The position numbers were made by a program, and so were the translations under genes. The notes under the pieces were generated by a model. The model was not told where the DNA came from and ran no database searches. It saw only the letters and a program-made list of their open reading frames with translations. A stretch of DNA of 64,000 nt. Origin: Chrysomallon squamiferum (lineage: Eukaryota; Animalia; Mollusca). This document shows, in pieces, positions 1-41,827 of this stretch (the first letter of the stretch is position 1; each line of letters begins with the position of its first letter). Where the stretch lies: positions 28,272,001 to 28,336,000 of the forward strand of contig CM022671.1 in the NCBI GenBank assembly GCA_012295275.1, in the 5' to 3' direction.

Positions 1-1355
1 TTTTATTTTTGAACAACATATTGTTATCTTTCCAGATGTTTTGTTTTACTTTGAAAGAAGTAAATAATGGTATCAAAAATGTTTACCATATAAATATGTT
101 CATACCAAATGATAATTACTATTTGTTTCCATGACAGACAATATAAATAAAATAATATTATAGTATTATATTAGTGCCATTTTCTATCTTTGGAAGATTT
201 GTTGAGTCAGTATAAAAACATTTAAAATTAAAAATGTTATAAATATTTTTAAAATAATATGTTGGACCAAAGTTTTTATATACTATACTGCTATGGCCAT
301 ATTATTTTATGTACAAAAATTTCTTAGATATATTTTTTATTATTCCACTTGGTTCTAAAAAACATTTTATTAGGTGAACATTTTAATAAGCAGTTACTTG
401 CATCTAAATAAAAAATTAAACAATGAATTAAAAACTAAATACTTTACAAAAAACAACATTTCTGTGTTGTAGATAAAAAAATTTGAAAGATAGTTTCATT
501 TAAACTATTTATGACTGTTAAAATGGTGATTAAAATATATATTAAAAAATATTAATAAAAAGTCAAAGGAAGCAGTGCCCTAATTCTGCTTCATTATATA
601 TATAATGCTATATGTGATTAATTATTATTGCTAAAATTATTTAAATGAAAAACTGAAACAATTATTACACGAGAAAACATGTAACTAAAACAAAAAATTA
701 AAGATTAAAAATTTACATAAACATTACACAAGTGAATCACAGAAATCAAAATCTGTCAGTGGGATATATACTCTGTGTGTCAAAGATTTAATTATTTTCA
801 TCTTTATTAGGTATGTTCCTTGTATTATGTCATAATTATCACTACCAACCTCTAGTGTATATTAAAGCTGTGGTTTTTGTAATCAGCAATGTCTTTTTAC
901 TTTAATATTCAGTAGCTGCAAATATTTAAATTCTGATTGAGAAATTGATTTTATTTTATTTTATCTTCTATAATTTCATTTAGGAAAAAAAAAAAAAAAA
1001 CCCAACAAACTTTTAATATAAAACACAATTTATGGAGTATATATATATCTTTTTGCGGAATGCTTGTAAAATATTTGATATAAAGCAGTCATATCACTAT
1101 TTGGGAAAAATAGTCTTTTCCATTTAATAATTTTAAAATATTTCTCGAGACAATATTATGAGGGATTTTTGGTTTGGCAGTGTATTTTTAATTTTCAGAG
1201 AAATGTAATTATCTTAAATAAGCAAAGTGTATGGTAAACAAATTCTTAACATTATTAAACTTAGTGAAATAAATTATTCTTGTATGTATAAAAATGTTCA
1301 TAATTTAGCAAATTAAATTCAGTGAAAATAGTGAAATTTATGCAGCCAGAAAATC

Positions 1356-3434
1356 TTAAATTTGTGAATTTGGTAGCAGAGCTGTTCTAGAGGAACATAG
1401 CTGTGGATTAGTAGGTTGATACAAGTTTTCCAAAGGAATCTGTGAAGCAGGATCTCCTTTTTCAATTGGAGGTTCACAGTATCCTTTTCTCTTACGAAAT
1501 CTTTTTAGAAATATGATGATGAAGCACAGCACTATGGTTGCCCCAACCACCGTACTTACACCAGCAATAATTTTTGATGTGGTGATGGTAGTAATACCTT
1601 TTTTAATGGTCATCTCATGTTCGGTGGTAATGTTTAAACAATGGACGATATATTCTTGCATGTACACTATGCATATTTCATATGTGGTGAGAGGCTTTAG
1701 TCCTCCTATGGTACATCTGTGTATGGCACTACTGAGATACAGTATTTGTGAATTGCTTTTGCTGCTTTCACGATAATGAAGCTGAAAGTCTTGTAAATGA
1801 AGCCGTGGTATTGAACCTCTCCATTCAACAGTTATAAAATTTTGTGAAATTGTAACAGGAACAATCTTAAGATCTTTTTGCATGACATGTAGTCTGGCTG
1901 AACTTACATCATAGCCCATTTGATTCCATGCTTCACAGCCGTATGTCCCTTCATCTGACTGCCTTATTCCACTCAGGAAAATTGCTGTTTCATCTAAAAG
2001 AACAACACGTTTGTTTTCCAAAGAAGAATTGAGAACCTTTCCTTTTGGTAAAAGCCAGTTCAACTGAGGCTCTGGAACACCAATAGCCTGGCACTCAAGA
2101 TAAAGATCATCACCGATGGTAAGATTAAGACTGTCAGAAAACAGTGCCAGTGTGGTTGGTGAACAGAGAGGTGGGATGTTCTCCACTGGAATTTGCCTAA
2201 GTGGTACTTGAAATTGACTTGTTGGTGTATCACACAGAAGTTTATCTGAAGACTTTATGTAGTTTTCACTAATGTTGGCTTCTGCAAACATAATAAGTTC
2301 TTGTTTAATCCAGTAGATATTGCAGTCACAATGCAAAGGATTATTGTACAAATGAAGTTCTTTTAAATGATTAAAACTGTCCTTGACAGCCATAGGTAGT
2401 GCCATAAGAGCATTGTTATGAAGAAAGAGCTCGTGAATATGAGATGTGTTTATAAATGAATTTGGATGAATGAAAATCAGTTTTTTGTTGTCATGAATTT
2501 GTAATGTCAACAATCTTGGCAAGTTAGTAAAAGCACCTTTTTCAATAACTCTAAGATATGGTTGGAAGCTCACTGATATTTCTGTAATATTAGAGTTGCT
2601 AAAAGCATTGGTTTCAATTCTTTTGAAATTGTTAAAGTCCAGCAGCAAAATGTTCAGATCTGGAATATCCATTATACTTGTTGGAACTGTTTTAAGATTA
2701 TTGTCAGATAAATTAAGGAACTTTAAGGCTTGAAGACCTTGGAAACCTTCTGAATGAATTTTTGTTATTGTGTTAGCTGATAGGTCAAGATGAACAAGAT
2801 TAGATAATGAATCAAATACTTGTTTATCAATAGAATATAGACGATTTCCTGCTAATTCAAGTCTAGAAAGAGAAGAAATGGAGAGCAGCCATATTCTTTT
2901 TAAATCCCTCAAAAAGTTGTGATTCAGATAAAGTTCTTGAAGATGGTTTAAACCTCCAAAAGCATGAATTTCAATTTTTTGTAAGGCATTGTTTGAAAGT
3001 TCCAAAACATCTAGATATTTCAGACCACTAAAACTGCCATGTAACAGAACACTTATTGCATTACCATTGAGATACAAGTGCTGAAGACTTCCAGTATTTT
3101 CATAAATTCTTTGGTTATCCAAGAAGCGAATTCTGTTGTATGACAAATCAAGAATTTTTAGGTGGGGCAAGTGTGGAAGATTTGATAAATTTTGAAACAT
3201 ATTCTGGGATAAAAGTAATGCCTCTGTATGTATTGGAATATCTGATGGAAATTCCCTTAATCCTTTGTTGCTGCAGTTAACTGTTTGCAGGTGATTGTCA
3301 AATGAGCCAAATGTTGTTTTTGAACATATGCAACTCTGTGGACATGTAGAACTGATTGGTTGATTTTGTGTTACATCAACACCACATGAGGTAGACAAGA
3401 GGAAAAAAACAAGCATAAAACCCTCTAGGCTCAT
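1356..3434 (-). CDS. LRRN1: Leucine-rich repeat neuronal protein (LRRN1/2/3 family), 692 aa, single coding exon, type I membrane protein
   Basis: Signal peptide (MSLEGFMLVFFLLSTSCG), LRRNT (CPQSCICS..VNCS), ~12 LRRs, LRRCT (NNPLHCDC..C..C), Ig domain (LECQAIGVPEPQLNW..DEGTYGCEAWN), FN3 (ITVEW..LKPLTTYEICI), TM (IIAGVSTVVGATIVLCFIIIFL). The tail motif SQIPLENLYQP resembles LRRN1 SSIPLNELYPP. The paralogue number is not resolvable. Confidence 0.88.
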   Translation of the reverse strand: MSLEGFMLVFFLLSTSCGVDVTQNQPISSTCPQSCICSKTTFGSFDNHLQTVNCSNKGLREFPSDIPIHTEALLLSQNMFQNLSNLPHLPHLKILDLSYNRIRFLDNQRIYENTGSLQHLYLNGNAISVLLHGSFSGLKYLDVLELSNNALQKIEIHAFGGLNHLQELYLNHNFLRDLKRIWLLSISSLSRLELAGNRLYSIDKQVFDSLSNLVHLDLSANTITKIHSEGFQGLQALKFLNLSDNNLKTVPTSIMDIPDLNILLLDFNNFKRIETNAFSNSNITEISVSFQPYLRVIEKGAFTNLPRLLTLQIHDNKKLIFIHPNSFINTSHIHELFLHNNALMALPMAVKDSFNHLKELHLYNNPLHCDCNIYWIKQELIMFAEANISENYIKSSDKLLCDTPTSQFQVPLRQIPVENIPPLCSPTTLALFSDSLNLTIGDDLYLECQAIGVPEPQLNWLLPKGKVLNSSLENKRVVLLDETAIFLSGIRQSDEGTYGCEAWNQMGYDVSSARLHVMQKDLKIVPVTISQNFITVEWRGSIPRLHLQDFQLHYRESSKSNSQILYLSSAIHRCTIGGLKPLTTYEICIVYMQEYIVHCLNITTEHEMTIKKGITTITTSKIIAGVSTVVGATIVLCFIIIFLKRFRKRKGYCEPPIEKGDPASQIPLENLYQPTNPQLCSSRTALLPNSQI

Positions 3435-3892
3435 GCTGTTAAAATGATCATTTTATTCTTCATCAGAATTAGTTTTGTAGCTTTCACTTTCTCTGTGTTC
3501 TTGCACACATTTTCTGGTCAGATATCAAACCATGATGATGGTTTAACTTTCAAAATAGTATTTCTTAAATATTATTTATTCATCTAGGACAATGAAAAGG
3601 TAATTTCCTTTTGGAAGATCCACAACTGCTTGTTGGATGTTCCTCTCTGTTTAAAATCTTGCCCTTCCATCTGTCACATTCACCACATTGCTGTTTCTGT
3701 TGACATGTAGTGATTTACTTTATACTGAAGTTAAGAAGTTTCAGAATACTTATTTTAATGTTCATTTACTTGACTGTTTTTGTTAAAGATATGCTTCCAA
3801 ACCAATCCTAGATAATGATGACAGAATATTCTTTTTGGTCAGTTTTTGTTTTGATTACAGATTTAACCAAGAGTTTCTTTGATGATCTTTAT
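3435..3892 (-). other. 5' UTR portion of the LRRN terminal exon (splice acceptor at 3893-3894)
   Basis: On the minus strand a long polypyrimidine tract (plus-strand A-run ~3897-3920) ends in TTCCAG|ATAAAG, 458 nt upstream of the ATG. Vertebrate LRRN genes likewise carry the whole CDS in the last exon after non-coding exons. Confidence 0.6.
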
Positions 3893-6050
3893 CTGGAAAA
3901 AAAAAAAAAGAAAAAAAAAAGATGTAAATAAAAGGCAATAAATGAACACATTTTTATTTATATAAAATACTGTAGCAGTGCAGATAAGTAAATAAAAACA
4001 GTAAAAGAACAAGCCATAAAAAAAAGTAAATAATCAAAATATATGTATAATAAAAATAAAAACAAGTGGTAAAATAAGATAATGTGATATTTAGTTCTCA
4101 CAACATTTAATAAAAACTCAAACCATAATATTTAGACATTATTCGCATCTTTATCTTTAAAAAACCCCAAACAAACAAACAAACAAAACAAACAATATAA
4201 AGAACAAAAACAAAACAAAACAAAACCCTTTAAATATGCATGAATTAATATATCCTATGAATTATAATAACCTACATAGAATAATTTGTAATTATGGTAA
4301 TACATTCTCAAATAAAAAATATTATTTTTTAAAATGATGAAAAACAGAATAGTAAATAACAATATGCAGCAGATATTATTTATGAATAATATTACATTTC
4401 ACTCACAAAGTTAAAAAGCTGTTATCCTTGGTTGTATTCATTGTTTTGTTTTACAGTTCTTATAAAGACACCATACCAATATAACTGAAATTTAGTTTGT
4501 TGTTATCATCACAGGAAAGTAGCAGGTGTTTTGTAAAACTAACTTCATGTAAACACAATTGATTGAACTTAATGGACATGTTTTCTTACAATTGTCTATC
4601 ACTGATAACTGAAATGCATATGTTATTGTTTGGCTTAAAGCAAACAGATTACAAAGTATTTAAACAGTAAGATTAATGATCTGTTGTTTTTGTCTTGATA
4701 GTAAGATTGAGTGTTATATTTATGTGATTTGTGAATGCCCCTGTAATTTCAAAGGTTTGTGAATTATTTTGTTATCACAATGACACACTTAATCTACATT
4801 TAAAGAAAAGTACCAGTAAGTTTATTTATCAGTATTCAGTTAAAATGGAAAGATAATAATTAATTAAACAACAGAGGTGCAAGGATATTCATCATGATGT
4901 CAAAAAAAAAATATAATGTTACTTAAAAATTGTCTAAAGTGCTCCTGTGATGATTTGTTATGGATTTACTTAAATAATATAATGTACAATACGGAAGTTT
5001 AATATAAATTATTTATAAAAAAAAGATGGTGTTGGTTGTAGTCTAGAACCATTTGAATCAAAACAAGACAGAAAATGATCATGTGTAGTCATTGTTTTCA
5101 GTTTACGTTATACTTCCATTAACTGATACAAGAAGACAGGCATAACATATCTGACTACTGAAGCATAAATTTTTGTTTTAAATGTCTTGATTAATACCAT
5201 TATTGATTTATTGCAACAATAAATCACAACTTACAGCAGATTGCTCTAATCAGAGGTGACATGGTGCAGATATTATTGTTCAGTTTATTTCTTATTTTAT
5301 GCACTTGGCATCTTTTATTAATTCTTCCACCTGTTATTTAATTTTTACATTATTTTATATAAATACAAATGTATTTGGTAATAGTATTAACTGTATGTTC
5401 TTTTATATTAACATTAATCGAATACCTGGCTATGTATAATACAGATTACATAACAAAAAATGTGAATATTTCATTTTGATGATCATATTCCTGTTTGTTT
5501 TTTTTAAATGAATATTTCATTTTGAATATTATATTCCTTTCTTATTTTTTTTTAAATATCTAGTTTGTAATTTTTAAGCCTATATATTCTGCTTTGCATC
5601 TGTGTAATATTCTAATAATTTTAATAGCATCTGTTTGAAGACTTGTTAAAATAATATTGTGTAACAAATTTTAGCAGCAGTTCGTTAATACTGAATGAAA
5701 TAAGTATTAAATAGATTTCAGTAGGTAAACAAATAATATAATATATAGATATTAAAAAAACTGATTTATTATTATTTCAGTTTATTGGAAATTTTACTGT
5801 CTCCCTAATATACATATTATTTTACTTTTTCTCTTTCAGTTTATAACTGCTTTACATTATTTATAGATTTTTGATTGGAGCCCTATAGCTCTGGAGAGTT
5901 ACATGCTTTGTGTACATGAACTCACACTTGAAATATTTATAACAAAATAATTAAAAACAATAAAAGAACACTCCAGGCATGTTTTATTTATTTTTTCACA
6001 TAGACTTGATCACCGAATTATTCATATTTTTAGAAAATAAATAAATTTAT

Positions 6051-6057
6051 AAATAAA

Positions 6058-6133
<76 letters not shown>
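6051..6133. repeat. Compound (AAAT)n(AAT)n microsatellite
   Basis: Directly visible. Confidence 0.95.
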
Positions 6134-6136
<3 letters not shown>

Positions 6137-6997
6137 TTAATCCACTGGAAAGAATATCTGGGCATGCATGTGGTTTTTGATAATGAAGATATTAATATAT
6201 TTCCAGACTGACTAAAATTTTGACAAACGTCATAAAAATAACATTTTTTAAAAACAAAACAGTGTGTGTGTTGTTTCAGAAGATGCATGCATAATTAGAA
6301 CTGACTGGTAAACTAAAATGTCTACTGCAGAATTTAATAAAATATTTATAAATAATCTAATGCTCACTCAGTTCAGAGTGCATATGCACGCTTTACTATC
6401 AGTTTACTATCGTAGTAAACAGCTGGTGTTAATAGCTGGTTGTGTGTAAAACTGACCTACATTCCATTATTTACTGTTAATAACAGTGTGTCAGACTGAA
6501 AACTAGAATAAGCATAAGGGATTTTAAAACATTTGTTTAGATAATTTAGTTGCTATAGTCACATTAATTGTTTTTGTATTATACAAAGATGATTTCCCCC
6601 TCCCATTATAAAAAAAAAAAAAATATGTTGGTGTAAAGCTTTAATAGTGTTCATATAAAAAATTATAATTCAGAAAACTTAAAATTAGCACACAGTGTAT
6701 ATACATGAAGAATAAATCCAAAATTCTGAGACCATCCTTTTATTAAAGCTTGGCTATTTATTTGTTTATAAACATTGGAGTATTCTTAAAATGAATTAAA
6801 AAACCATTGCACCAAATGACGTATCCACCAATTTACAACCAGTTCAGTGTGAAGCATAGTTCTTTTTAAATTGTTGGTCCAGTTTTTAGCAACATGCACT
6901 TGTCAAATGTTTAGTTACCATATTTTATAAACATTGCACTTACTTCTGGGTTTTTTGTTTATTTGTTTGGTTATTTAGTCTATAAAGATAGAGGTTA

Positions 6998-7055
<58 letters not shown>
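6998..7055. repeat. (AAT)n microsatellite
   Basis: Directly visible. Confidence 0.95.
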
Positions 7056-7056
<1 letters not shown>

Positions 7057-9203
7057 AAAACAAATAACAAATCAAATAAAAACAAATAAGATTTAAAAAA
7101 TGAGATAAAATACCATACCTTTTCGGGAAATGTTTGCCACCTTAATGATAATAATGTTTCAGTTTTCTGTTGGTTAAAGTGTTCTCTTTATATATATATA
7201 TAAAATAATGATATATTATTTAATAGTAATGAAGACTGAATATATATAACGAACTACATTTCCATTTTGTATAATATAATCTGTTTTGCTGTAGTAATGT
7301 TGTTGTTTTTTTATGTTTTTTTTAATGTATTTTTTTTAAGAATACATTTTAGGTTTAGCAGCAACATACAGATAATTAAAATAAAACATCATTTAGCATA
7401 TAGGTTGTTGTTTTCTATATATATCTGGAACAACCAGTAGCAGAACTGAATTCTTTACATTTTTGTTGTATTGTTATTCCCAGTAAATAAAGCAACAGAT
7501 TGCTTAATGCTTTAGAAATGTAACGACATTAAATTGTTGATATTTATAGTTTTAATAGTTATTTTGTAATCTGTTATATATATATATATATTTTATGATA
7601 ACAATTAATTGATAGAATATATTCATCTGTTAATTTTTATTTATTAAATATTTATTGGTTAGTAAAATAACTTGTTGATTTTTGTGAGATGAAAAATGGC
7701 CTATAGATTTACAGTGTTAGGTGGTGCAATTACTTGTCTGTCAACTAGCTGTTAATAGTAAGATGTGAAAAACAACTAAAACCACAAAAAAAAAAAAAAA
7801 AAAAAATTAAATAAATAAATAAAAATAACTAAACTAAACTAAACTAATAATTCTGTTACACAAAATAGGGGTTTTGCCATTTTCATGTTATGAATTGATC
7901 AGTTCTATAAGTTCTCATGTACAATTACAAAAAAAAAAAAAAAAAAAAAAAAAACCCAACAACATATGATCAAGGCCCTATCTACAATATGTCACATGAT
8001 CATGATGTAATATTAAAACAGTAGCTGTTTGTGAAATGCTGAATTATGCAGAAATGTTTACATTCTGTTTTATTCAAATGGTATGATTTCATGAAGGGCA
8101 GAGATTTCATGATAAGGCAGGCACATGATCTTAAAATAAACCTGTGGATTACCTGTAAAAAATGTAAACATGTTCCAGTTTTTCTTTAATAATGGTGATC
8201 CCGAAGATACCAGGGGCTTTGTTCTTTTTGTTACTAGGCAACAAAAATGGCCCTTAATTCAGACACTTTTCTGCAGTTTTTATAGTATTTTGCCAGAAGT
8301 ATTGTATTCAAATAATGTAAACAGAGGTTATTTCACATCAGACCAGCTGTGCTTTATGGAAGAAATAATCTGTCACCATAAACTGTTTGATAAACATAAT
8401 AAATTTATTATATTGCTGTGCCACATATTGTAAAAGATTTAGTTCTATCTAGGCAAGATACATTGGTTCTGTTGAAAACCGACCTAGTTAAATTGTCAGT
8501 TGTGAAATAGAATATACAATTTTAACATGAAAGAAGAATAAAATGTGATTATGTTTCATTAACAAATTTGCTTAAACTGATTTTAAAAAAAAAAAATTTA
8601 ATAGTATAAGTAAATTCATTACAAGGAATGGATGTAAACATATTTTTAATATTTTTAATTTTAGAAAATTTATGCTTAAAGCATGTTATCTTTGGCTATA
8701 TTGATCAATACTGATGTTAAAATATAAACACTGTTAAGAAACACTAATTACAATCTGTTTAAATCATGACTGAAAATTATTAACAAATTAATAGATTTTA
8801 TTATTATTATTTTTTTTTTTTATTCACTTCTCATCTGCAAAATTGTAAATACCCATCAAACAAATCAAAAACAATTCCAAAGATATAGATGAATATAAAA
8901 TTCAGTTGAGAAATTTTCAGAAATAAGTCACTAAAATAATACTGTTTATACAGGAATACAGTTTCTGTTAGTGATCACACATTATAATTTGAAATCTAAT
9001 TAGCAGTGAAATAGATTTACACAACACAGTAATCCTGAAATCATTAATTCTTTTTATATGAATCATGCAGCAATATTTTTTGAATACGTGCTTTGACATC
9101 ACAAGTAATAGCATGGTATTAAATTCATAAACTGACTGTTATCAAGATATTTACTCCTTAAATACATTAAACTTATTCAATTGTTATGTGTTTAGATACT
9201 AAC

Positions 9204-9549
9204 CTTAAGATAGTTCTAGCACTGTTCCAACAAAATGGATCAGCATTGATTGTGAACTTCTTAGATAACTTAGTTTGTGTCAGTATTAGATAAGCTGTCC
9301 GAATGACCCATACTCAATAGGGATAGACAGACATTAAAGATTTTATTAAGATTTCTCTGCCTTGTCTTTCCTATTATGAGACCTGAACGATAACAGGAAT
9401 TCTGCAAATGGTCTTCGAGCCTCTGATGCCAAATGGGAGTTAGATGATTTGTTTTCTTCATTGTCAATTACTGATATTGATTTACAAATGACATCCCAAC
9501 TTCAGTATCCAAAATCCAATTTGATGGCTTTTTAGCAGGTCGAAGCAAG
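9204..9549 (-). other. Putative non-coding 5' UTR exon of the LRRN gene
   Basis: Minus-strand acceptor TTTTATTGCAG| at 9550 and donor AAG|GTTAGT at 9203. The block is less AT-rich than its flanks. No transcript evidence. Confidence 0.35.
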
Positions 9550-10026
9550 CTGCAATAAAATGAATTTTTTCAACACAAAGAAAAAAAAAAAAGAGAAGTG
9601 AAATGGAAATTCACTTAGGGGAATATGCAGACTAGATGCATTTCCTAGGGGATGTAGCTAAATTAGTTCAAGGGACTATACTAATCTTAAAACAGATTGT
9701 GAAATGTTATGATTGAAGTTGTATCATATTGAAACACATACAAATATTGTGTTATTGTCTGTTATTTCATATTTAGACCATTGCTTTCTGACTGGTGCTT
9801 TTCTAATGAGATTTGTACCTTGCTTTCATTTGTCTACGTTCTAGAATGCTCTTCAGGAGAATATTTCTGGCTTTTTCTATCCATTCACTGTTGGTACCTA
9901 CATTGCAGTTAGTACTGTGAAGTATATATACAAAACAAAGTGAAACATAACCTTTTGAAATTAATTACATTTCAAATAGATATATAGTAAATATATTCTT
10001 AGCTTATTTTTGTGTGTGTATATATA

Positions 10027-10117
10027 ATGTCAGTAACCTAATAACTAAATTATTGTCAGATTTGTCTACATTATGCCAGTAACCTAATAACTAAACCATT
10101 GTCAGATTTGTCTACAT
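10027..10117. repeat. 46-bp tandem duplication, 2 copies
   Basis: CAGTAACCTAATAACTAAA..ATTGTCAGATTTGTCTACAT at 10031 and 10077. Confidence 0.9.
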
Positions 10118-13028
10118 ATAAACAATGTGCTTCCTTTTAGCTGTAAAAGCTTATTACAACTTTACTTAATTAGAATAAATCAATTATTGTTTGCACTTTT
10201 GCAGGTTATAGTGACATATACAGCTAGAAAATGGTATATTGTTGACCAAATCAATGGCGTTATTGAAGGAGTTTCAATTCATGAACTGATCTTTACTCAA
10301 GTGATGCTAGATCTGTTTTCACAGGCAGAAATTGAACATTTCATCACAAGAATTCTGGTCATGTATTCATCATGGTAGTGCTTTTAGAAAATTACCTTCT
10401 TTATGTAAATGCTAACAATAATGGTAATCAGTATTCAGCTGTCAGCGTTTCAGGAAGTTTTTGTTGGTCTGAACAGAAATCAATTTTTTTTTTTCATTTT
10501 ACTTTGCATTTTCAGAATGTTTCTCAGAATGTAAATATTTTGAAAATACCTGAAAAGATTTTAATTACTGATTTATTTTTAAATATTTGAATTTTGAGGT
10601 CATATTATATACTACCAAATTAATGTTATTTGATCTCTTGTTTGTCTCATCTGAATGGTCTGTTTCACAGTTTATGTGTTATGATTTCACTTACCTTTTT
10701 TTATGAGAATGTCAGTTAAAACTGTACAGTGGATTTATTTCAAATGTAGTTTTTGAATTATTAGCTTTTATGATATATTTTAATGTTAATGGAATACCAG
10801 AAATATGTTCTTATTACCTTCTTAAAATTCCAGTAAGTCTGTTTTAACTCATTGTATTATCAAGATGTATTATAACAACAAAATTATTTTGACTGTAATT
10901 TTAACTTGACCTTTTTAAAAAGTTGCAAATAACAAATTATCTAATTTATCTAAGTTCTGTAAATAGCTTCTTTACTTGACAGCTTTGAAGCAAATCAGCA
11001 GAGAAATACAGCTTCTTGAAGCTTGATTATCTAAATAGCATCACTGATCCTTTGTCAGATACCACCTGTAAATTTGAAAACTCTAAGTCATAGTTCATCT
11101 GTGATGATGATTTTGCAACAGATGCAGCCACATAGATACAATCTTACACTTTTACATGATAACATTATCACAGATATTAAAGTTACATTCCAGTTGTTTA
11201 AGTCTGGAAACTTAATATTATAGATGATTTTAATATGTTGATATATACTGAGGAATAATTAAATTTGAAGGTAAATCAGAACAATAACTACACTTTTATA
11301 AATAGCATATTTCTTTCTGGAATTATTTAAAAACATTTTCTTATTAATATTGTCATTAACTATATGAAATAAATAAATAAATAAATAAATAAATAAATAG
11401 TAGTAATTAAAACAAGTAAATAGTTAAAACTTAAATTATTTAGTTATTTTCATATTCAACATACTAAGGTTATAAAGTATCAGATTATAGCATTTTATTT
11501 ACTATTTTTTATTTTATTTAGGTTTTTGCAAGTTACACCTAGAACTAGGACAAAATGTAGTTATCTAATTATTTTGATATCTAATACTTTTGCTGTTGTT
11601 AAAATAAAAATGAGTTAAGAAACACTGACTGTTAAGTATGATCAGTTATAATGGAAGACAATTATAAAATGTTTTTTCTTCTTTTTTTTAAACTTTTTTA
11701 TTTAATACTTGAAATACATGATTCAAAATAATTTGTTGTAAAGGACAGAAAGGGAGATATATACTACTTTTTATATTTTTCTTGGGTACTTTGTATACTA
11801 ATTTTGATCAACGTTATACATTACTGCATTGATTATTCTTTGGAGCAAAATCTAATATGACCAGACAGACACTTATTCTGAAGGCTACCCCATGAAGTAA
11901 TCTACTTGACATTTGCTGTTTACAACTGACTGACTTTTCATTAACCATAAAAGTGGAGCCATCAGAATGTTCTGCTTCTGCATACTAATATGTTTGTTGG
12001 ATTCCATTATTTGCTCCTTTACTAACCATGAAATATCTCTAAAGGATGGGATTTACTTGATCAACGTATAATTATACAGGCTTAATTTGTTAATGATGCT
12101 TAATGTAAAAAAAAAATAGTTTGAAATCTATCTTGATTTCTTTGCTAACTGAAATTAAAATAGACATAAATTTTAGCATTTTTTTGTTGAGAAACAAGTA
12201 GAAAACAGAAAAATATTCATTTCTGAAGTTTGATCACATTAAATAATTTGAATACAGATCAAGATAAATAAAATTAATAAAAAAGAAAAGAAAAAAAGTC
12301 TCTTTTAACATCAATTTTCTGAATCTAAGAACTGATAAATGAAAATAATATATTTCAAGTACTGATATTTAGTATTTTTTACCATTTATTTACAAGAAAC
12401 TATTAAATAATAAATGTTTCTGTAAAATTTGCTAATTGTATGTAGCATTTCTTTGGTTCAAATTGTACTTCAGATGTTTACTACAATGTTTGTTTTGGTG
12501 CAAGAAAACTATGCAAAACATGATATTTGGCAGTGTTTCAAAAGTAGGCTTGCTCAGATGCTGCACATCCTCACTGACTCTTTGGGAATGTTTTCAACCT
12601 GTCATTCAGAGATCTAACAAAATGTCTTATATTTTTATTACTAAGAGTTGCTGCGCCTCCCTGCTAACTCTTAGATCTTGTAGTTTTGATGATTACCTTT
12701 GGCAGTAACCAAGATTCCATGAACAGTGATAGGAACTGATTGTTGTTTCAATCAGTCAAGCAGAAACCATAAAGCCTGAAGTAAAGTATGCATGACAAAT
12801 ATCATTGCAAGTGTATTGTTGAGAAAATGGATAACTCAAGTTAAAATGAATACTCAGCCTAAAGATTAGACTTCTTGGTAGAAGAATGCATATTCAGAAC
12901 ATCTGTAAAGATTGTTTAAAAAGAAAAAAAAGAAAAAAAAAGGTATTATATACAAAAATCAATGAGAATGCTTAGATCATGTATATATAGTGACTGTGGA
13001 GGAATACCGAATCTAATAATTTGAAAAA

Positions 13029-13030
<2 letters not shown>

Positions 13031-13074
<44 letters not shown>
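13031..13074. repeat. (GT)n microsatellite
   Basis: Directly visible. Confidence 0.95.
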
Positions 13075-13076
<2 letters not shown>

Positions 13077-24023: not shown

Positions 24024-24601
24024 GGTATGTTCCCAAAACTGGCAGTCTCCGGATTAGGTAAGCGGTGAGGTGTTCTAATCCGCTTCCAGAAATAGGAAAA
24101 CTGGTGTGAGCAATTAAGGCCAATTTAGACACATGGGGATAATGAGATGTGTGAAGAACAGAAGGGGGCGATTAACGGGATTAACCTTAATAGCAGTGAA
24201 GAGCAGAGGTGAGCCTGAATAGAGATTGCAAGAAAATTAATGTTTGAAGACATGAAACAAATGTTGTATCTCAGTAAAATTTTGAGAAGGAAATACTACC
24301 AGAAGCACAAGCTCTTCCAGCTGGGACTGCAGTACGCCACGTGTACCTGGGACATGGCTTCCTACTTGTCAACTTGTGGTGGAATGCTTTGTGGGACATT
24401 TCATGTGAATGTGCTTCAAATTGTGGACAAAATACTATTTAACAAAAGTACATCAGTTAAGGTGATTGCACACCAATTAGTAAGGGTGAACAATAAACTG
24501 CCAGAAATGGAACAACTGGCATGTCCAATTAAGATGTGTTGTAACCTCACTGCCAAATTCAGGAATGCCAGATTCAGGAATGCCAGAATCGGGAATAAAC
24601 T
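24024..24601. mobile_element. Degenerate non-autonomous DNA transposon relic (~580 bp)
   Basis: GC-richer island bounded by imperfect inverted ends (GGTATGTTCCCAAAACTGGCA..GCGGTGAGGT vs ACCTCACTGC..TGCCAGAATCGGGAATAAACT). 15-bp subterminal repeat ATTCAGGAATGCCAG. No clear TSD. Confidence 0.5.
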
Positions 24602-26171
24602 GTAGTAATCATGGATAAGATCATTTAAAAATAATGTTAATATTGAACTATTTTATTTCCATTTTTGTTAAAATTAGCATTATGTGTTTTTATTTGTAAA
24701 AAAATTAATGGAAGAATAAAAACATAAATTAAGAATAAATAAGTTTTCAGACTTGGCATATATCTCAAAAGACAAATATGGCTCTTTTTTTTTCATCATA
24801 AATGTCTGTTTATATCTGAAATTAAATTTTATTTGAAGGAATTATTTAAAGCTTAAAAATGAAATCAGGTTTAAATTTATTTAGGTATATAGGAAATTTT
24901 GGCTTTTCATCTTAAATCTGTAGCATTTAAAAATTTTAAAACACAAAATCAGTTTTCTTCTTTTCAGGAAAATTCACACCAACAATGAAATAGTGTGGCT
25001 TTATGTTACAAGTCATGAAATGTAACTTTTTACATATCCTGACATGATTTGTTTCCTTCTCTGTTTTTAATTATTTTTCCACTTTTTAATAACTATCCTT
25101 CTTACAACAGCTTTTTTAACCTTGCCTTCATGTGAACTGTATTTAGCTCAGACTGATAGTTAACCAAAACAAATAAACAAAAAAAAAAAGAAAAAGGTTG
25201 AAATACCGCTAAGTGAAATGAAAAAATAAAATGAAAAAAAAGAGTAAGAAGTGACACCTGATTTTACTTCTTTAGTTACAGAGATTTTTTGGCTAAAACC
25301 ATTTTTACCAAACAATCTGTATCACTTGTACTGAGTTTGGTTTGCCACATGCCAGTTATAAGGTAATTTAGCTCCAATTTCTGACAAGTTTACATCAGAA
25401 CAAGCATGCTTCTTTTGTTGTACTAAGTGATATTGATTAATTGCAAACACATTTAGCCTTTTTTTTTTGTTTTGTTTTTTTACACTAAAAGTCTAAATAT
25501 AGGTGATGTTCAGTGATTGTTAGGTTCCTTTAAGATTTATTTTTTTGTACTGGTATTTGATTAGTGGTAAAATAGGTTGTTCTTGCCTGTTTGCTTCAGG
25601 TGATAAGGCTTATCTTAAGCAAAATAAGACATTGGTACAGTTGACAAAAATAAAACAATTGTTAGAGCTATTAGCTTTTTGATTTTATCATTGTTTATAG
25701 TTAGGAATATTTAAAGGAATATTTGGAACAATCTAGCATAGGTGAGGACTAGATAAAAAAGCTTAAAAGTATGGTGATTATATCAAGCAATATGTAGTAT
25801 GTTCTTAGTCTTTCAAGTGCTTCTTTTAGACAGTCATCCAGTTAACAGTTTTAAATACAGATAAACAAATTAAAATACTGGAAGTTTACTTCAGTTCTTT
25901 TCACATTAAGAACTGTTTCAACTTGATAGCAACGTGGTAATTATTAGTTTGTACTTTAGTTTTGTATCTAGGTATCGAACAAACACATACATGAAACTTT
26001 GATAATTCAAACTTAAAGAGGTCAGAAAAATAATTCATGTCACAGAGAATTTGATATTTTGGAAATTCAAATATTAACCACAAAATCCTATTGCAAGAAA
26101 CATATACTCTTGCATATTTTGGAAATTAAGTAAATAACAAAATGCATATAACATGCAATTTACATGAATTT

Positions 26172-26173
<2 letters not shown>

Positions 26174-26226
<53 letters not shown>
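26174..26226. repeat. (AC)n microsatellite
   Basis: Directly visible. Confidence 0.95.
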
Positions 26227-26227
<1 letters not shown>

Positions 26228-26776
26228 CTATAAGGAAATGTATTTATTAATATATAAAACAAGATATTACATATGTTATCAGAAAAACATAAAATATATA
26301 ACTGGAAATAAACTTCAAGTTCATTTATTATCAGATTTCCAAACTTGGTAAAACATAATAAACACAATTCCATTGACAGTCATTTGAACTGTAAATGGCA
26401 AGTTTGACTAGATACACTACACTCATTTGTAATCAAAAATAAATACCAATCAGTGAACTTTAACAGAATACTGCAATAGTATTTTGAAGACTGTCTGCAA
26501 TTATGTATTATATAAAGACACCTTACTGAATGTACACACAGATGACTAAAGTGGGCATATATCCTTCTGCTTAATTAATGGGCCATTGTTTTGTAATTAT
26601 CAAGGGAAACGGTAGTATAATCATTACATTAAGAGTAAATAATAATAATAAAATAAAAACTTTAAAAAAATAAATAACCAAACAAAAGTAAAATAATGTA
26701 TAGAATTTTATTAGTATTGTTTTTTTTATTGATCTAGTAACAAAATAAAATAACTATTACAAAACTGTAATTGAAA

Positions 26777-26866
26777 ACAGTTATATTTATTTAATATTAT
26801 TAACATTTTTGTTGTATATATATATATACAACAAAAATGTTAATAATATTAAATAAATATAACTGT
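26777..26866. repeat. Perfect 90-bp AT-rich palindrome (45-bp arms, no spacer, centred on a TA run)
   Basis: Arms checked base by base: ACAGTTATATTTATTTAATATTATTAACATTTTTGTTGTATATAT and its exact reverse complement. Confidence 0.95.
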
Positions 26867-27877
26867 ATTTCAAACTGAGTCTTAAACATTTCTTTCACTT
26901 AATAGATTTTCCAGATATAATGAATGTGAACTTTCATAAAGTAATGGCAACAGATACAGATAACATATCTCAAATTCATTCATACTTACTTAAAGTTGCA
27001 ATCTTCTGTGTCTTATGCAAAGAATAGAATTTCATTTTTTTCTCCTCCTAAATAATAATAATAATAATAATAATTAAAAAAAAAAAAAAAAGAAAGAAAA
27101 GTTTTACAGATGGTCAATAGTTCACCACATAAAGTTAATGCCTTTACCTCAGACTTCCAATGTTTCCTACAACATAATGGGATCGTTTTCAAATTTGTAA
27201 AAAATACACTTGATAAAATTAGCATGTTTTATGTGTTTTCCTTGGCTGTTGAAAATGTTTAGTTAATTTAAGAGTTGTAAACAAGCTGCCGAAAAGCTGC
27301 AAGAAAAAAAAAAAAAAAAAACCAACAAAAAACATGACAAAAAAACCATCTCCTCCAAAAAACAACAAACAACTAAACAATTCCAATCAGGGTGAAATTT
27401 ATTGCTTTATTAAATACATCTTTAATTCTAATTATTAAAAAAAAAAAAAAAATTAAAATGAAAACTCCACCAGAAAGAAAAAAACAGAAAATTAAAAATT
27501 AAAAAATTATAATCAAGTGGTTCCAAAATAAATATATTATTAGAAATAAAGTCATTTTGGCGATTTTTTTTTTTTAAATGTGGTGTATATTTTATTGTGT
27601 GTGTATGTCTGTGTGTAAAGTTTATCCCTGGTGTTAATGTAAAATTTCATTATGGAACAGCACCTTTAAAAGTGATTGGTTTTGCCTAAAACGTCAAGGT
27701 TGATAGCAGTTTGGCAACTTGACTAGGACGAGGGTAACTTCATAAACACGCTTTGAGTTCAGGATGCCTCATCAACACAGATGGCTTCTTACTTCACCCA
27801 AACCTCACACAAAGGTCAGATCATGTGTCTGTGTGAAGCATAGATATTTTCTTATGAGCTGTTCCAAACATTTTCTT

Positions 27878-27924
<47 letters not shown>

Positions 27925-28625
27925 TACTGATATAGTACACTGTTTTGTTACTTACTTCTTTACGTCTTTACTTATATCTGTAAGTATGTTGAAGTGTAAA
28001 ATCTATGTATTTCCTCTTTTTGAAATCTTGCATCTGATTGTTAAAGCATTAATGCATCTTTAGAAAGCTCAATTATTAGTAAATTTAAGATTATTTTTTC
28101 AGCATCCTTTTTTAAATACCAAACACTTAATAATTTAAAAAAATGTTGATAATTCACTTTAGAAAATATGACTAAAAATATATAAACTAAATGTATTAAA
28201 TCGGAAATTTTTAATTTAAATGTTTTCAGGATGTTTGCAGTAACATCTCTTTCCAAATAATTTTGATGTCTAATTATTTAAAGATCGTATTAGTATGACT
28301 TTTTAAATTATTCTAAAAGAAAAATAAGAAGAAGGGGTGGGAAAGAATTATAGAGAATTTCATGCAACCCCCTTTATCAACAAGAAAATGTACACTAATC
28401 TTTTGAATGAATTACTGAGATTTAATGAAAAAGCTAAATAAGTTTTTACTCTTTATTTACTAAAACAGACTGTTAGTCATTTAAAGAGACAGTTGTATAT
28501 CCCATGGATCATTTGAGAACATCTGAATAGCTCCTTATAGTCTCATTAGATTTCACTTGTAGGATTAATCAATGACATCTCATATTTAGAATTTTCAAGT
28601 GCATCTGTTAAGGTAATATATTATA

Positions 28626-28721
28626 GGGTACAGAAAAAATGGCACCTGGAAGAAACAGTATTAGCACATAATGCCATTTCTTCTGGTGCCATTTTTTTCC
28701 AGTGCCATTATTTCCTCCACC
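28626..28721. mobile_element. Small foldback/MITE-like relic
   Basis: AGAAAAAATGGCACCTGGAAGAAA is inverted relative to TTTCTTCTGGTGCCATTTTTTTCC; TGCCATT sub-repeats are reiterated. Confidence 0.45.
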
Positions 28722-30371
28722 TATTAATACATATGGTGGTTGCTAGCAAATCTGTCAGTTAAATGAAAAGAAATTTTAGATCTGTTTATTTTATTATTAA
28801 ATGTTTTTATTACAGTAATTTCATAAATTTGTAACTTAAAGATTTGGTTTACATAAAAAAACTAAAATAATAATAATAAAAAAAATAAACTAATAAAAGT
28901 AAAATTACAAAAAAAACCCACAACCCCCAAAAAAAACTAAAATAAAAAGTATCTTCAGAAGTGTCAAAATGAGTAATATTTATAAACAATTTTGAATAAT
29001 ACATTTAAATAAATTAGTTTAATCTTTTTTAGTTTCTATGTTTAGAAAATAGGCTTTATTCTGCTTCTTTAGTAAAGCTGTGTGGTTTAGCTAAACTACC
29101 CTGACCACAGCATAAACTCATTATAAAACTGTAAAATGGTTTTCTCAGGAAAGCTGCTATTATTGAAGTGTTGGAATAAAGTATATTGATAAAGAAATTA
29201 AATATTTTGAAGGGATGCAAATGAGTCTGCCAGTTCTCCTAATCTAGACATTGACAGATGGACTGGTGCAGGCAAATTCTGATTAAAACTCTTGAACCAA
29301 TATTTGTCCTGTTCGCAAAATGCATGACAAAAAATGCAATAAACTGACAAACCATTAATCTAATGGAACAGGGTCTATTGATCAGCCGTTAGTGGTTGCG
29401 TGAAGGATGTGTAGTTGCCTTTAGGCAGATTACTTGCATGTATGTTCTAATTTTCAGCAGTTTATGAAAGTGTTAGATAATATTTATTAAAATAACCATC
29501 AGTTATTAAAGTTTTATAATACAAATACATATTTTCATGGACATGAAATTTGCATGTTTAAATATGAACTTTTAAAAGAGCTTTAAAATAATAATAATAA
29601 TAATTAAAAAAAAAAAAAAATAATAATAATAAAATAAAAAAATTAGCCTTTATGGTTGGAATTATTTGTATTACACCTCAGGATTCCTTTTATATGTAAA
29701 TGTGAAACAGCAATTTAGACTTGAAACTTCAGTATTGAAAACATTTATGTCAAAGGCCTTGGAACACCTTTATTAAAAATGTATTTTATTCATCAGCTCA
29801 CCAGCATCATTTGTAATGTCCTTTTTCTGTCAAACATCATGACAGTCATTTTACAAAAATGTGTTTCACAGCACGAAAAAATTTGATTAGCAACAGCTTA
29901 AAAAAAATAAAAAAATAAAGAAAGTAACTGACAGTAAAATCAATTGTGGAACTGTAATTATAACTTTTATATTAAATTAATTAAATTTAATTAAGATCCT
30001 TTTATTATTATTATTATTTAAGAAGATAAAAAGGCATCACAAATAGATTAATTGTGTTGTTTATCCTACCTACTATGAGCACCACCGGAACAATTTCACT
30101 TCCTGTCAGTGAACTTTGACTTCAGGCTGTATAAGCTGTTCTATAAATCTTTGTGTGTATGTCAGTGTGTCTTTCCTTAATATTTAAGAATAGACTAAAG
30201 GTTTCTTCATACAACAGCAGGAATGTCTCTTATTATTATATAATTATGCTGCAATGTTCTGCTTTATTTTCAGTTCTGGAAAGTTTTATTTTTTTAAATA
30301 TTTTTTTAAAATTAAGTTTATTTGAGTGTGAGAACTTTTGTTATCACAATAAGTATAATGGAGGGAGGAAC

Positions 30372-30403
<32 letters not shown>

Positions 30404-32571
30404 TTTTAAATGAACAGAAATTAATTAATTTTTAATATAAAAATGTAAGTGGGAAATTTGCGTTTGGTGATATTTCATGATATTCTTTATCGTATGTTGG
30501 ATGGCTAATAAAGGTGAAAGGAAGAATGGCAAAAAAACCTTGCAAAATTATTTTTGTGACATTATCTTTGAAAATAGCAGCTTAATCAAACAAGTAATAA
30601 CTACAACCATTGTATTTAATACTCATGTGATTGTAATTAAGCACACATAATCTAATCAGACAATAGACCACATTGTATATTCTCAGAATGCTTGATAATT
30701 GATTGTAGTCATCTCTTACTGTTGTCATTATAAATAAAAAAAGCAACATTTGAAATAAATGATTATTGCATTTCATTAATCTGATACTGTTTAGTAGTCT
30801 CACACACCCATACTGATGTGGCTTTAAACAAATTTATAAAGTGGCACTACTTCTTTTGTCTTATTGCAGCCAGAAGATTATTTCTTTCTTTCTTTCTTTA
30901 TTTATTTATTTATTTATTTATTTATTATTATTAAATTTTAAAAAAATGTCCATTCTTCCAGTGCATTCTTCTGTTAAAATTTCATTAAGAAGAAAGACAA
31001 AAATTATTGAAGTGGAATCTAATTGTCAAACTGCATACATTCTAATGGCTTTATTCAATTAACATTTGAGTAGAAAAATCTAATAGCCTGTCCAGTCTTG
31101 TTCTAATTATCTACCAGGCCCTTAAAACAGCTGTTCTAATTGAGCAGGCTGCTGTGTAATTAATTTGGCATTTGGGAGAGATGTTTCTTTTGAAGTTTTG
31201 GTAAGTGCAGTGATGGAAGAGATTTAATAATGTTTTTGTTTTTGATTTTGATTTTAGTTTTTCTTTGCAGATTGGGATATTTGATATTCCTGATGAAATG
31301 AAAATATTCTTTGTTATGATTAGTGTGCAACAATAATATTAAAAAACAAACTGGCTTCCTTTCATGTCAGTATTGTAAAAATGAAAAGCTTTGTGAAAAT
31401 GTGCCATAAGCTTACTGCAATTGATACTGCTGAAGCGTAAAGATCTGTTGTTTGATCAAGCTGTGTCCTCATCAGATTAGTTTCGTCACAGCACATTATC
31501 GATCTGTATTTACTCAGTATTAATGCATGTTTAAAGTTTACTAATTCTTTTTTTTTTTTATTCTGCTATATTATTATTGTTAATCCTGTCTTGACATAAC
31601 TACTTTGTTTTGTCAGTTCAGTATTTGATTATCAGAGAAAATATCACTTGTTTGTGATTAACGTCAACTTTCATTTAAATAGGAAAAGGCCAAAATTTAT
31701 GAATTCTAAAGCTTCTTATTGACAGATTTTATTTATTTATTTATTTATTTTTTTTTTAATTTATTAATATTTATTTTTATATTAAGAAAAATTTGTACTA
31801 TTTTTATAACGTGCATACAAAAATTGCTGTTACTAAAAAATTAATATTGCCACTTCAAGCTTCACCACTTAAATTTATTATATGTTCATTTAGTAACTTT
31901 AAAAATATTATGGTTCCTGCAAACAATTACAACCAGTACATACATACTTATTAAATGAAATACATGAAATTCATAATTAATAGTTTGGCCATACAGTTTC
32001 CCTAAATGTACACAAATTAAAAACAAAATATTTTTCAGTAAAACTGTCTTTTATTGATGTTTTAATATAATCAATCGATGGTGTTGAAATATCCTCAATG
32101 AAGAAAATTGCCTTACACCCCATTGTACCTCACTGTACTTGATGTGCTCAGATATAATGTTTACAATAAGAATAATCCAGTATGCACTCTTTTAGTTCTG
32201 ATGCTGCTGTAGATTATTTGTTGTTAATTATAGACAACAGGTTTATCATTTAGTTCACACATAAATATTTAATGATTTCAGGATTGAAAATATTTATTAG
32301 ACATATGTAATCTGAGGCCTTAGTTTCTTTGAAGTGATGATTTTAAATAAATAAAATGGAAATATTTCAAGAATTTAATCCTTTTTTTCTTTTATACTTT
32401 AAAAAAAAAAAATATTTTCTATTAAATGTTACTGAGACATAAAGAAATGCAAGTTCAGATTTATTAATCTGTTATGTAAATTTTTATAGTTAATTTTCTT
32501 TTATTTATTATTATTTTTTTTTTTTCAGTTTTCCAATGTTTTTAAAAGTTAATATATTTTTTTAATTTCAG

Positions 32572-32637
32572 GTCACCATCCAATCCAGATCAAAAGCTGA
32601 TTAAAAGAATCATTGCGCTTGAAGGTGATACAGTCAG
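32572..32637 (+). CDS. IMMP2L: Mitochondrial inner membrane peptidase subunit 2, internal exon (equivalent to human exon 4): SPSNPDQKLIKRIIALEGDTV(R)
   Basis: TTTCAG| acceptor and |GTAACA donor, 66 nt. Contains the S26 peptidase catalytic-Lys box IKR..ALEGD; matches recalled human [22 protein letters not shown]. Confidence 0.93.
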
Positions 32638-33106: not shown

Positions 33107-33209
33107 AACAAGGTCTTATCGCCGTGCTTTGTTAAATGTACCAACAGGACATTGCTGGGTGGAAGGGGATCACCATGAGCATAGTATGGACAGCAACTAT
33201 TTTGGACCG
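33107..33209 (+). CDS. IMMP2L: IMMP2L internal exon (equivalent to human exon 5): TRSYRRALLNVPTGHCWVEGDHHEHSMDSNYFGP
   Basis: TTGTAG| acceptor and |GTTTGT donor, 103 nt, phase-compatible with the previous exon. Diagnostic IMP2 motif VP.GH.WVEGDH...S.DSN.FGP. Confidence 0.95.
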
Positions 33210-34563
33210 GTTTGTATGATGTGCAACAATTCAGTAGTTAACAGTTAATAACAATTTAAAAAAAAAAAAATGAATTCAATGCCTTTACACAAGAAACTAT
33301 TTTCAGTTGGCAGCAAGATATCCTTTATGTTGATCATGCTGTAAACAGGAAAGCACATACCATCATCTTTGACATTATTTTTGTTTATGCTTGAGGTCGG
33401 ATAATCTTTAATTTATTAGGCAACAGAACAAAAACTATTTTTGTTACATTCTGATTTTTAGATAAGCTTAGTCATCTCATCCATTTGGTACCATTAATTA
33501 GGTGGGGTTTTTTTTGGTCTTAGTCTGGCTGGATCAGTGAGTCATCAGATAATCTTACCACAATAGCATGTCATAGATTTGTATCTGAACCAACATGAAT
33601 CTATTGTTAAGAATGTTATTGGAATAAAGTGTATGAAGAGACTGATAACCATGATCATGTTTTACTGAATGGATTGTCAAGAGTTTATAAGTACCAAGAC
33701 GAACTGTTCCTTTGGTTTAACATGTTATTAAATTTGTTTTCTCAATGACAAATTCAGTTCAGCTCATCTGCTTGGGTCATTCTAGTGTAAATCAATAAAG
33801 TTTTTTTTTTCTCATGAGATTCTCAACTGTTTTGATTAAAAAAAATATATACCTGAAAAAAAAGAAGAAAAAAAAGGAACCAGTCAGGCAATAAAGCACT
33901 GAGTTCATCCCAGCACAGTGTCGTGGGAATTTTCAGTTTTAAGACAGATGACACATGCTGCAAGATAATGCTCATGTAAAACATGATCATATGATTGTTA
34001 CCATTTTCTTCTCTCATTAAAAACCGATAAGCATACTGTATGCTTGCTAAAGGTAAACAATTCCAAATATGACATCATTGACTCATCAATTTATTCTTTT
34101 TGGGGTGTCTTTTAGCCTGTTAAATGTATTTTTATCAGTAGTTTAAAAAAGAATTTTGTTCATTTGAAAAGTAAATTAAGAATGAACAGATGTATATTTA
34201 TTGAAATAAAATGCCATCAGGATATTTTGGCATTTCTTTTACAGCTATCAAGAAGTCAATAATCTGTATTGCATTAGGTTAGAATTGATTTTTAAAAATT
34301 CGAACATTTGCAGAAACTGACGTTAAAATAGTCAATAATTATTTTTGAAGAACAAAAATGTCAAGGATTAAAATGCTTTCTTTTACAAAATTTTTGTTTT
34401 GTAAAATGCATGTGTGGGTTGACTTTTTCATGTCATTCCTCTTTTTAGAAATCACAGGTTTAAGATTTAATCACAAAACAAGATTATGATTTAATCAAAT
34501 TTACATAAAGAATGTTTCACTGTTTCATGAATTTATCTGCATTCTTTAACTTCTTGTTTTCAG

Positions 34564-34704
34564 GTTGCTCTTGGAATCATCAGTGCCAAAGCCTCTTATA
34601 TAGTATGGCCTCCAAGGCGATGGCAAAAACTGGATGTTATTGAGAACTGTGATCGGTTGTATGATAGAGCTTTCCTAGACTCGATAGAAATTGACAGTTT
34701 CTAG
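34564..34704 (+). CDS. IMMP2L: IMMP2L last coding exon: VALGIISAKASYIVWPPRRWQKLDVIENCDRLYDRAFLDSIEIDSF*
   Basis: TTTCAG| acceptor, phase 0. WPP.RWQKL motif of IMP2; TAG at 34702-34704. Confidence 0.93.
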   Translation, partial: VALGIISAKASYIVWPPRRWQKLDVIENCDRLYDRAFLDSIEIDSF

Positions 34705-38645: not shown

Positions 38646-38677
<32 letters not shown>

Positions 38678-41824: not shown

Positions 41825-41827
41825 CTG

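What the first reader, a model, noticed from the sequence alone, without database searches (positions are those of the whole stretch)
1..34704. LRRN gene nested antisense in the giant IMMP2L intron, matching the human LRRN3/IMMP2L arrangement in an apparent invertebrate
Seen: an intronless LRRN CDS on minus, and IMMP2L exons on plus starting only at 32572 with a phase-2 acceptor. The preceding intron is therefore >32.5 kb, whereas the next two introns are 469 and 1354 nt. Known: human LRRN3 lies antisense in the very large IMMP2L intron 3, immediately before the SPKNPEQK exon. Inference: the same intron hosts the same family here, so the nesting would predate vertebrates. It may be held in place as a genomic regulatory block, with a neural target gene inside a housekeeping bystander.
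Basis: partly seen in the sequence, partly recalled or inferred. Interest (0 to 1): 0.75.

Follow-up and report, generated by a model that had tools for sequence, protein, structure and literature searches.

The report
Ancient nerve gene inside mitochondrial gene
In this sea snail a likely nerve-cell adhesion gene (LRRN-like) lies backwards in a more than 32,000-base intron of the mitochondrial peptidase gene IMMP2L, at the matching position to human LRRN3, and the two genes appear to be neighbours in several other molluscs, so the nesting likely predates the split of molluscs and vertebrates.

Summary
Observation confirmed. The window comes from a gastropod close to Gigantopelta aegis (85% identity). 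An intronless LRR-Ig-FN3-TM gene lies at 1356-3434 (-). The last three IMMP2L exons lie at 32572-34704 (+). RNA contigs from 3 of 4 runs join them and carry an upstream exon that is absent from the window, so the host intron exceeds 32.5 kb and holds the LRR gene. A published human fusion transcript fits the same exon start and phase. Of 9 mollusc species with both genes retrieved, 6 share a contig length (5 with near-consecutive accessions, including a chiton), 2 are on different contigs, and 1 is uninformative. Vertebrate LRRN2 is the best vertebrate match, but my trees neither support nor reject an LRRN clade. Ancestral nesting is likely (about 0.8). The regulatory-block mechanism is untested, and simple entrapment explains the persistence as well. 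I found no paper on invertebrate nesting. The scan noted the same nesting earlier in an octopus-type genome (e1-8829112, unchecked AI note). Verdict: new member of a known kind.

The parts
1356..3434 (-). Intronless LRRN-like CDS, 692 aa: N-terminal hydrophobic start, LRRNT, about 12 LRRs, LRRCT, Ig, weak FN3, one TM helix, 48-aa tail ending in S-x-I
3435..3894 (-). Predicted 5' UTR part of the LRRN coding exon, behind a long polypyrimidine tract and AG at 3894-3893; upstream non-coding exon(s) not located
   Evidence: sequence only; no RNA laid here
1..32571 (+). Host intron of IMMP2L, open at the left, at least 32,571 nt, phase 2; equivalent of human intron 3
32572..32637 (+). IMMP2L exon (SPSNP...IALEGD), 66 nt; equivalent of human exon 4
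33107..33209 (+). IMMP2L exon (HCWVEGD...DSNYFGP), 103 nt, after a 469-nt intron
34564..34704 (+). Last coding exon of IMMP2L with stop, after a 1354-nt intron; an RNA contig runs on to 35181

Best explanation
An LRRN-like adhesion gene lies antisense in the more than 32-kb IMMP2L intron before the SPSNP exon, and this nesting is likely inherited from the common ancestor of molluscs and vertebrates. It likely persists for two linked reasons. First, any break between the nested gene and the flanking host exons would cut IMMP2L, so escape needs a duplication or relocation step. Second, the intron likely holds LRRN's own promoter, non-coding first exon and enhancers, which would explain why this one intron is huge. 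Shown: gene models, splice junctions, absence of the upstream exon from the window. Inferred: nesting from that absence, neighbourhood in other molluscs from accession order, orthology, common ancestry. Untested: any regulatory element. After the vertebrate genome duplications three LRRN copies were kept and only LRRN3 would have kept the host.
For: Junctions and upstream exon in RNA; upstream exon absent from the window. Human LRRN3 lies in IMMP2L intron 3 (PMC3565204; PMC4255718). In a human DOCK4-IMMP2L exon 4 fusion the out-of-frame read is Val-Ser-stop, and the exon 4 primer decodes (by hand) to VIALEGD (PMC2941017). That is what an exon starting one base before Ser-Pro gives, as here. 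All 11 other introns mapped nearby are 0.19-1.4 kb. Vertebrate LRRN2 scores 180-235 bits on the LRR+Ig part, against 94-110 for LINGO1, LRRC4, LRFN5 and LRIG1 ectodomains with the whole protein as query. LRRN1/2/3 are ohnologs (PMC7530604 Table S6). LRRN3 is the predicted GRB target with IMMP2L as bystander in human (PMC6906185 Table 1).
Against: Patella caerulea (78.4 vs 44.0 Mb contigs) and Mizuhopecten yessoensis (1.01 vs 2.01 Mb scaffolds) have the genes apart, and frog lacks the host (PMC3933685 Table 1), so the link is breakable. No non-mollusc invertebrate had both genes retrieved. ML trees do not resolve LRRN2 plus the protostome proteins as one clade (p-AU 0.375); FastTree gave 93, with two long unnamed rows included. 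On the non-repeat LRRCT+Ig part, LRRN2 leads only modestly (36-62 bits against LRIG2 49-51, LRFN5 43, LRRC4 41), and the FN3-tail part gives no significant LRRN2 match. LRRN1 and LRRN3 were not among the named sequences retrieved. Accession order shows neighbourhood, not nesting.
Confidence: 0.75

Rival explanations
1. Strict genomic regulatory block: enhancers spread through IMMP2L introns drive LRRN in the nervous system, and selection on them is the main force keeping the pair together.
For: Human GRB prediction with LRRN3 as target. Very long bystander intron, a GRB prediction (PMC3514665). Several target ohnologs with one bystander is the commonest fate of ancient GRB pairs (82 of 117, PMC7530604). 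Four or more transcript records for one LRRN protein in Haliotis suggest several 5' ends.
Against: No conserved non-coding element or enhancer was tested. Only one intron is long, the one holding LRRN itself. Apparent losses in limpet and scallop.
Confidence: 0.4
2. Passive trap only: an ancient insertion that cannot easily leave, with no regulatory dependence on host sequence beyond LRRN's own proximal promoter.
For: Geometry of nesting (inference). Losses in Patella, Mizuhopecten and frog are tolerated.
Against: The intron is at least 24 times longer than 11 of 11 neighbouring introns in an otherwise compact region, which suggests it holds functional sequence.
Confidence: 0.35
3. Convergence: LRR genes entered the same IMMP2L intron independently in molluscs and vertebrates.
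For: Intronless LRR genes are often nested, and convergent nesting is proposed for vertebrate LRR genes (PMC3565204 Box 1). The tree is unresolved.
Against: Same host gene, same intron position and phase, same antisense orientation, same domain architecture, and best vertebrate match in the same family.
Confidence: 0.07
4. Not nested here: a mis-join or unseen rearrangement places LRRN upstream of a partial IMMP2L.
For: The upstream exon was not seen on DNA (no genome held).
Against: No N in the window; spliced full transcript; neighbouring accessions in five other molluscs.
Confidence: 0.05

Closest known systems
Human IMMP2L-LRRN3 nested pair, 7q31.1 (PMC3565204, PMC4255718, PMC2941017: passages read)
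   Same: LRR-Ig-FN3-TM gene antisense in the large IMMP2L intron before the Ser-Pro exon; same phase; three host exons follow (human exon count of six is recalled).
   Different: Mollusc, with one LRRN-like gene found per species. The two downstream introns are short here (469 and 1354 nt). The intron's full length is unknown.
Ancient GRB pairs such as Isl-Scaper (PMC3514665, PMC7530604: passages read)
   Same: Developmental gene linked to a housekeeping bystander with a long intron; several target ohnologs, one bystander.
   Different: The target is an adhesion protein, not a transcription factor, and is nested. No enhancer shown. IMMP2L occurs 0 times in the PMC7530604 supplement, whose GRB list is limited to transcription factors and whose full pair list is not given.
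Timp nested in Synapsin (SYN1/TIMP1 listed in PMC3933685 Table 1; fly-to-human conservation recalled, from no call)
   Same: Antisense nested pair shared by protostomes and vertebrates.
   Different: Different families; there the host is the neural gene.
LRRTM in alpha-catenin genes (PMC3933685: passages read)
   Same: Intronless neural LRR gene nested antisense.
   Different: Arose in early vertebrates; no invertebrate lrrtm reported.

Membership tests
LRRN (NLRR) family | Signal, LRRNT, 12 LRRs, LRRCT, one Ig, one FN3, one TM, short tail (PMC2225406) | tested here: met
   Pfam LRRNT, LRR and I-set above cut-off; FN3 below cut-off (E 2.6e-4). 10 regex LRR matches plus 3 irregular repeats counted by eye; TM at 621-647. 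No signal-peptide predictor was run.
LRRN (NLRR) family | Whole ORF on one exon | tested here: met
   Single 692-aa ORF
LRRN (NLRR) family | Closest vertebrate relatives are LRRN rather than LINGO, LRRC4, LRFN or LRIG | tested here: met
   LRRN2 180-235 bits against 94-110; the margin is small on the non-repeat part; only LRRN2 was available
LRRN (NLRR) family | One clade with vertebrate LRRN1-3 | tested here: inconclusive
   FastTree 93; ML unresolved; p-AU 0.375; LRRN1/3, LINGO and tartan not in the tree
LRRN (NLRR) family | Endocytic YxxPhi and di-leucine motifs in the tail | tested here: inconclusive
   Read by eye: no clear YxxPhi; one LL without an acidic residue; C-terminal S-x-I
LRRN (NLRR) family | Neural expression and adhesion role | not testable with these tools
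   No RNA laid on the LRRN gene; contigs cannot show tissue
tartan/capricious | LRR-only ectodomain without Ig or FN3 (recalled) | tested here: not met
   Ig domain present
IMMP2L (peptidase S26) | Best match to IMP2 proteins, spliced expressed exons | tested here: met
   82-89% to G. aegis IMMP2L; RNA junctions
Nested gene pair | Nested CDS lies between two consecutive host exons | tested here: met
   By exclusion: the upstream exon is in the RNA but not in the window; its DNA position was not seen
Genomic regulatory block | Conserved linkage across distant taxa | tested here: met
   6 of 9 molluscs on a contig of the same length, 2 apart, 1 uninformative; human from papers
Genomic regulatory block | Long bystander intron | tested here: met
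   At least 32,571 nt against 0.19-1.4 kb for 11 local introns
Genomic regulatory block | Conserved non-coding elements and enhancers in bystander introns acting on the target | not testable with these tools
   No related animal genome DNA available

The most novel reading that the evidence does not exclude
IMMP2L-LRRN is a regulatory block dating from the last common ancestor of bilaterians, with a cell-adhesion gene rather than a transcription factor as target. Intronic enhancers would drive neural LRRN expression in molluscs and vertebrates alike, and human IMMP2L variants tied to Tourette syndrome, autism and schizophrenia would act through that ancient LRRN3 landscape.
Probability: 0.35. 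Interest if true: 0.7.

Novelty: new member of a known kind. Interest (0 to 1): 0.5.

Why it matters
Nested gene pairs shared by protostomes and vertebrates are rarely documented, and this one had been traced only within vertebrates in the papers I found. It dates a human neuropsychiatric locus to the bilaterian ancestor and favours LRRN3, not IMMP2L, as the gene the intron serves. Lineages that kept the nesting (abalone, periwinkle, chiton) and lineages that seem to have lost it (limpet, scallop, frog) allow a direct test of regulatory constraint against passive entrapment. It also indicates that protostomes have full Ig/FN3-bearing LRRN-like genes although flies lack one.

Tried and rejected
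Own genome: none held. Metagenome scan for LRRN loci: 21 loci of 1.6-14.7 kb, none with an IMMP2L exon in its flanks; too short to be informative. Ptychodera P0097 lies on a contig of the same length as IMMP2L but is about 2000 accessions away and did not group with LRRN; dropped. Hetaerina P0404 is a doubled LRRN model with no IMMP2L part. LRRN found without IMMP2L: Owenia, Lingula, Ischnura, Artemia, Leptotrombidium, Octopus, Mytilus, Ruditapes and others. IMMP2L found without LRRN: Lineus, Tubulanus, Sinanodonta, Glandiceps, Limulus and others. These give no linkage test. Profile search of the PDB with A1 was not used, as A1 contains LRRN2. Rfam: 0 matches in the window. Self-BLAST: no dispersed repeats in the host intron. 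Literature searches for invertebrate nesting found no such report; one search found no exon coordinates. The supplement of PMC3514665 (595 ancient pairs) could not be read, and PMC7530604 Table S5 has 74 rows and is described as pair counts, not the 1,538 pairs, so the pair may be listed there unnoticed. PMC3380635 is not held.
Full report
Observation. The window is 26-31% GC over most of its length with no N. It has two ORFs of 150 aa or more. One is a 692-aa ORF at 1356-3434 on the minus strand. Pfam gives LRRNT, LRRs, an I-set Ig domain and a weak FN3; a hydropathy scan gives one TM helix at about 621-647. Three IMMP2L exons lie on the plus strand at 32572-32637, 33107-33209 and 34564-34704.

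Source. The LRR protein is 85% identical to Gigantopelta aegis 'LRRN1-like', 58% to Haliotis and 36-48% to other named molluscs, then 30-31% to a mite and Artemia and about 30% to vertebrate LRRN2. The exons are 82-88% identical to G. aegis IMMP2L. The window is therefore from a gastropod near Gigantopelta, not a vertebrate.

Nesting. Five runs hold the exon region, four on record as RNA, from one study. In 3 of the 4 RNA runs laid, one contig joins the three exons across GT..AG introns of 469 and 1354 nt; the fourth covers none of the exons. All three contigs continue before 32572 with letters that read FKRGEIVSL plus two bases, matching G. aegis residues just before Ser-Pro. This upstream exon end has 0 matches in the window at up to 3 mismatches. 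tblastn with G. aegis IMMP2L, and an HMM from 123 IMP2 proteins, find only the three exons. The upstream exon must then lie left of position 1, which puts the LRR CDS inside an intron of at least 32,571 nt. This is by exclusion, since no genome is held. The other two IMMP2L introns and nine introns of the neighbouring SLC35B4-like gene are 0.19-1.4 kb (exon edges set by eye).

Same intron as in human. LRRN3 lies in IMMP2L intron 3 (PMC3565204 Box 1, passages; PMC4255718, passages). PMC2941017 (passages) reports a DOCK4 exon 26 to IMMP2L exon 4 fusion that reads out of frame as Val-Ser-stop, and prints an exon 4 primer that I decode by hand to VIALEGD. Vertebrate IMMP2L has Ser-Pro at the aligned place. 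An exon that starts with the last base of the codon before Ser-Pro gives Val-Ser-stop when read from its first base, given suitable third positions. Human exon 4 thus starts at the same position and phase as the exon at 32572 (inference from the paper, not a direct alignment of human DNA).

Other molluscs. I could not read other animal genomes, so I used contig lengths and accession order. Both genes were retrieved for 9 species. Uninformative: H. rufescens. Apart: Patella caerulea (78.4 and 44.0 Mb) and Mizuhopecten yessoensis (1.01 and 2.01 Mb). This shows neighbourhood rather than nesting. With a chiton included, it points to the mollusc ancestor, with later losses. No non-mollusc invertebrate had both genes in my results. 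An earlier, unchecked note of this scan reports the same nesting in an octopus-type genome and adjacency in an annelid (e1-8829112); I did not verify it and do not count it as support.

Is it an LRRN? The architecture and single coding exon match the family description (PMC2225406, passages). The two chick Lrrn1 motifs used there for degenerate PCR have counterparts at residues 369-375 (5 of 7 identical) and 454-460 (4 of 7), compared by eye. On the LRR+Ig part, six vertebrate LRRN2-type proteins (four named) score 180-235 bits in one stretch. Solved LINGO1, LRRC4, LRFN5 and LRIG1 ectodomains score 94-110 against the whole protein. Against this: on the non-repeat LRRCT+Ig part the lead is small (LRRN2 36-62, LRIG2 49-51, LRFN5 43, LRRC4 41), and the FN3-tail part gives no significant LRRN2 hit. 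The protostome proteins form a group that follows the species tree. Their union with LRRN2 has FastTree support 93 with two long unnamed rows, is unresolved in IQ-TREE with 23 rows, and is neither shown nor rejected with 20 rows (CHADL and LGR5 left out; p-AU 0.375). No named LRRN1, LRRN3, LINGO or tartan sequence was available for the trees. Membership is likely, and the shared intron is itself strong evidence for it, though that argument is partly circular.

Mechanism. A nested gene cannot be separated from its host by a single break without cutting the host, so long persistence needs no regulatory cause (inference). The size of this one intron suggests that it also carries LRRN's own regulatory territory. 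A strong acceptor lies 460 nt upstream of the ATG, as in the two-exon vertebrate Lrrn1 gene with its large first intron. In human, LRRN3 is the predicted GRB target and IMMP2L a bystander (PMC6906185 Table 1, passages). LRRN1/2/3 are ohnologs (PMC7530604 supplement), and several targets with one bystander is the usual fate of ancient GRBs (same paper, passages and methods). Lrrn2 and Lrrn3a guide retinal axons in zebrafish (PMC12829569, abstract). No enhancer or conserved element was tested here, and the apparent losses in limpet, scallop and frog (PMC3933685 Table 1, passages) show that the link can break. I commit to ancestral nesting kept by entrapment plus resident regulatory sequence (0.75).

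Novelty. Seven searches aimed at the pair or at ancient nesting found only vertebrate reports. IMMP2L occurs 0 times in the PMC7530604 supplement, but that list covers transcription-factor targets, and its mollusc was the limpet Lottia, a group where the link may be lost (inference from Patella). The 595-pair list of PMC3514665 was not readable (main text has 0 mentions), so prior listing cannot be excluded. PMC2235866 (passages) counts no fly gene in the Lrrn1-3 cluster, and PMC3084456 (search listing only) calls the family orthologous to tartan; the Ig-bearing arthropod proteins seen here suggest loss in flies instead. Ancient nested pairs are a known kind (Synapsin-Timp, recalled). Verdict: real, likely unreported, new member of a known kind; interest 0.5.

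Noticed in passing
window 37000-42792 (-): Ten-exon UAA-family nucleotide-sugar transporter gene, SLC35B4-like (name recalled), tail to tail with IMMP2L; introns 0.19-1.15 kb. Human SLC35B4 is listed at a chr7 locus in PMC6906185 Table 1, the chromosome that also bears IMMP2L.
   Followed up: partly
window 50821-51022 (+): Exon-like stretch flanked by AG and GT whose translation recalls the N-terminus of PCTAIRE kinases (CDK16/17/18); recalled resemblance, no Pfam hit above cut-off.
   Followed up: no
window 57463-58323 (+): 286-aa Ser-rich ORF, CpG-richer than its surroundings, no Pfam family.
   Followed up: partly
window 1356-32571: CpG observed/expected is 0.18-0.19 across the host intron and the LRRN CDS, which would fit germline methylation of the host gene body spreading over the nested gene.
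   Followed up: no
window 24001-24600 and 20801-21200: GC-richer islands (39-42%) in the 26% GC intron; candidate LRRN promoter, non-coding exon or regulatory elements.
   Followed up: partly
window 41543-41692 and 36606-36856: A 150-nt imperfect palindrome (83%) in an intron, and three tandem copies of an 82-nt unit.
   Followed up: no
proteins P0359, P0025, P0024 (Ischnura, Artemia, Leptotrombidium): Arthropods carry full-length LRRN-like proteins with an Ig domain, although flies are reported to have none.
   Followed up: partly
protein P0404 (Hetaerina americana): 1550-aa model made of two near-identical LRRN-like copies in tandem, probably a fused annotation or assembly duplicate.
   Followed up: yes
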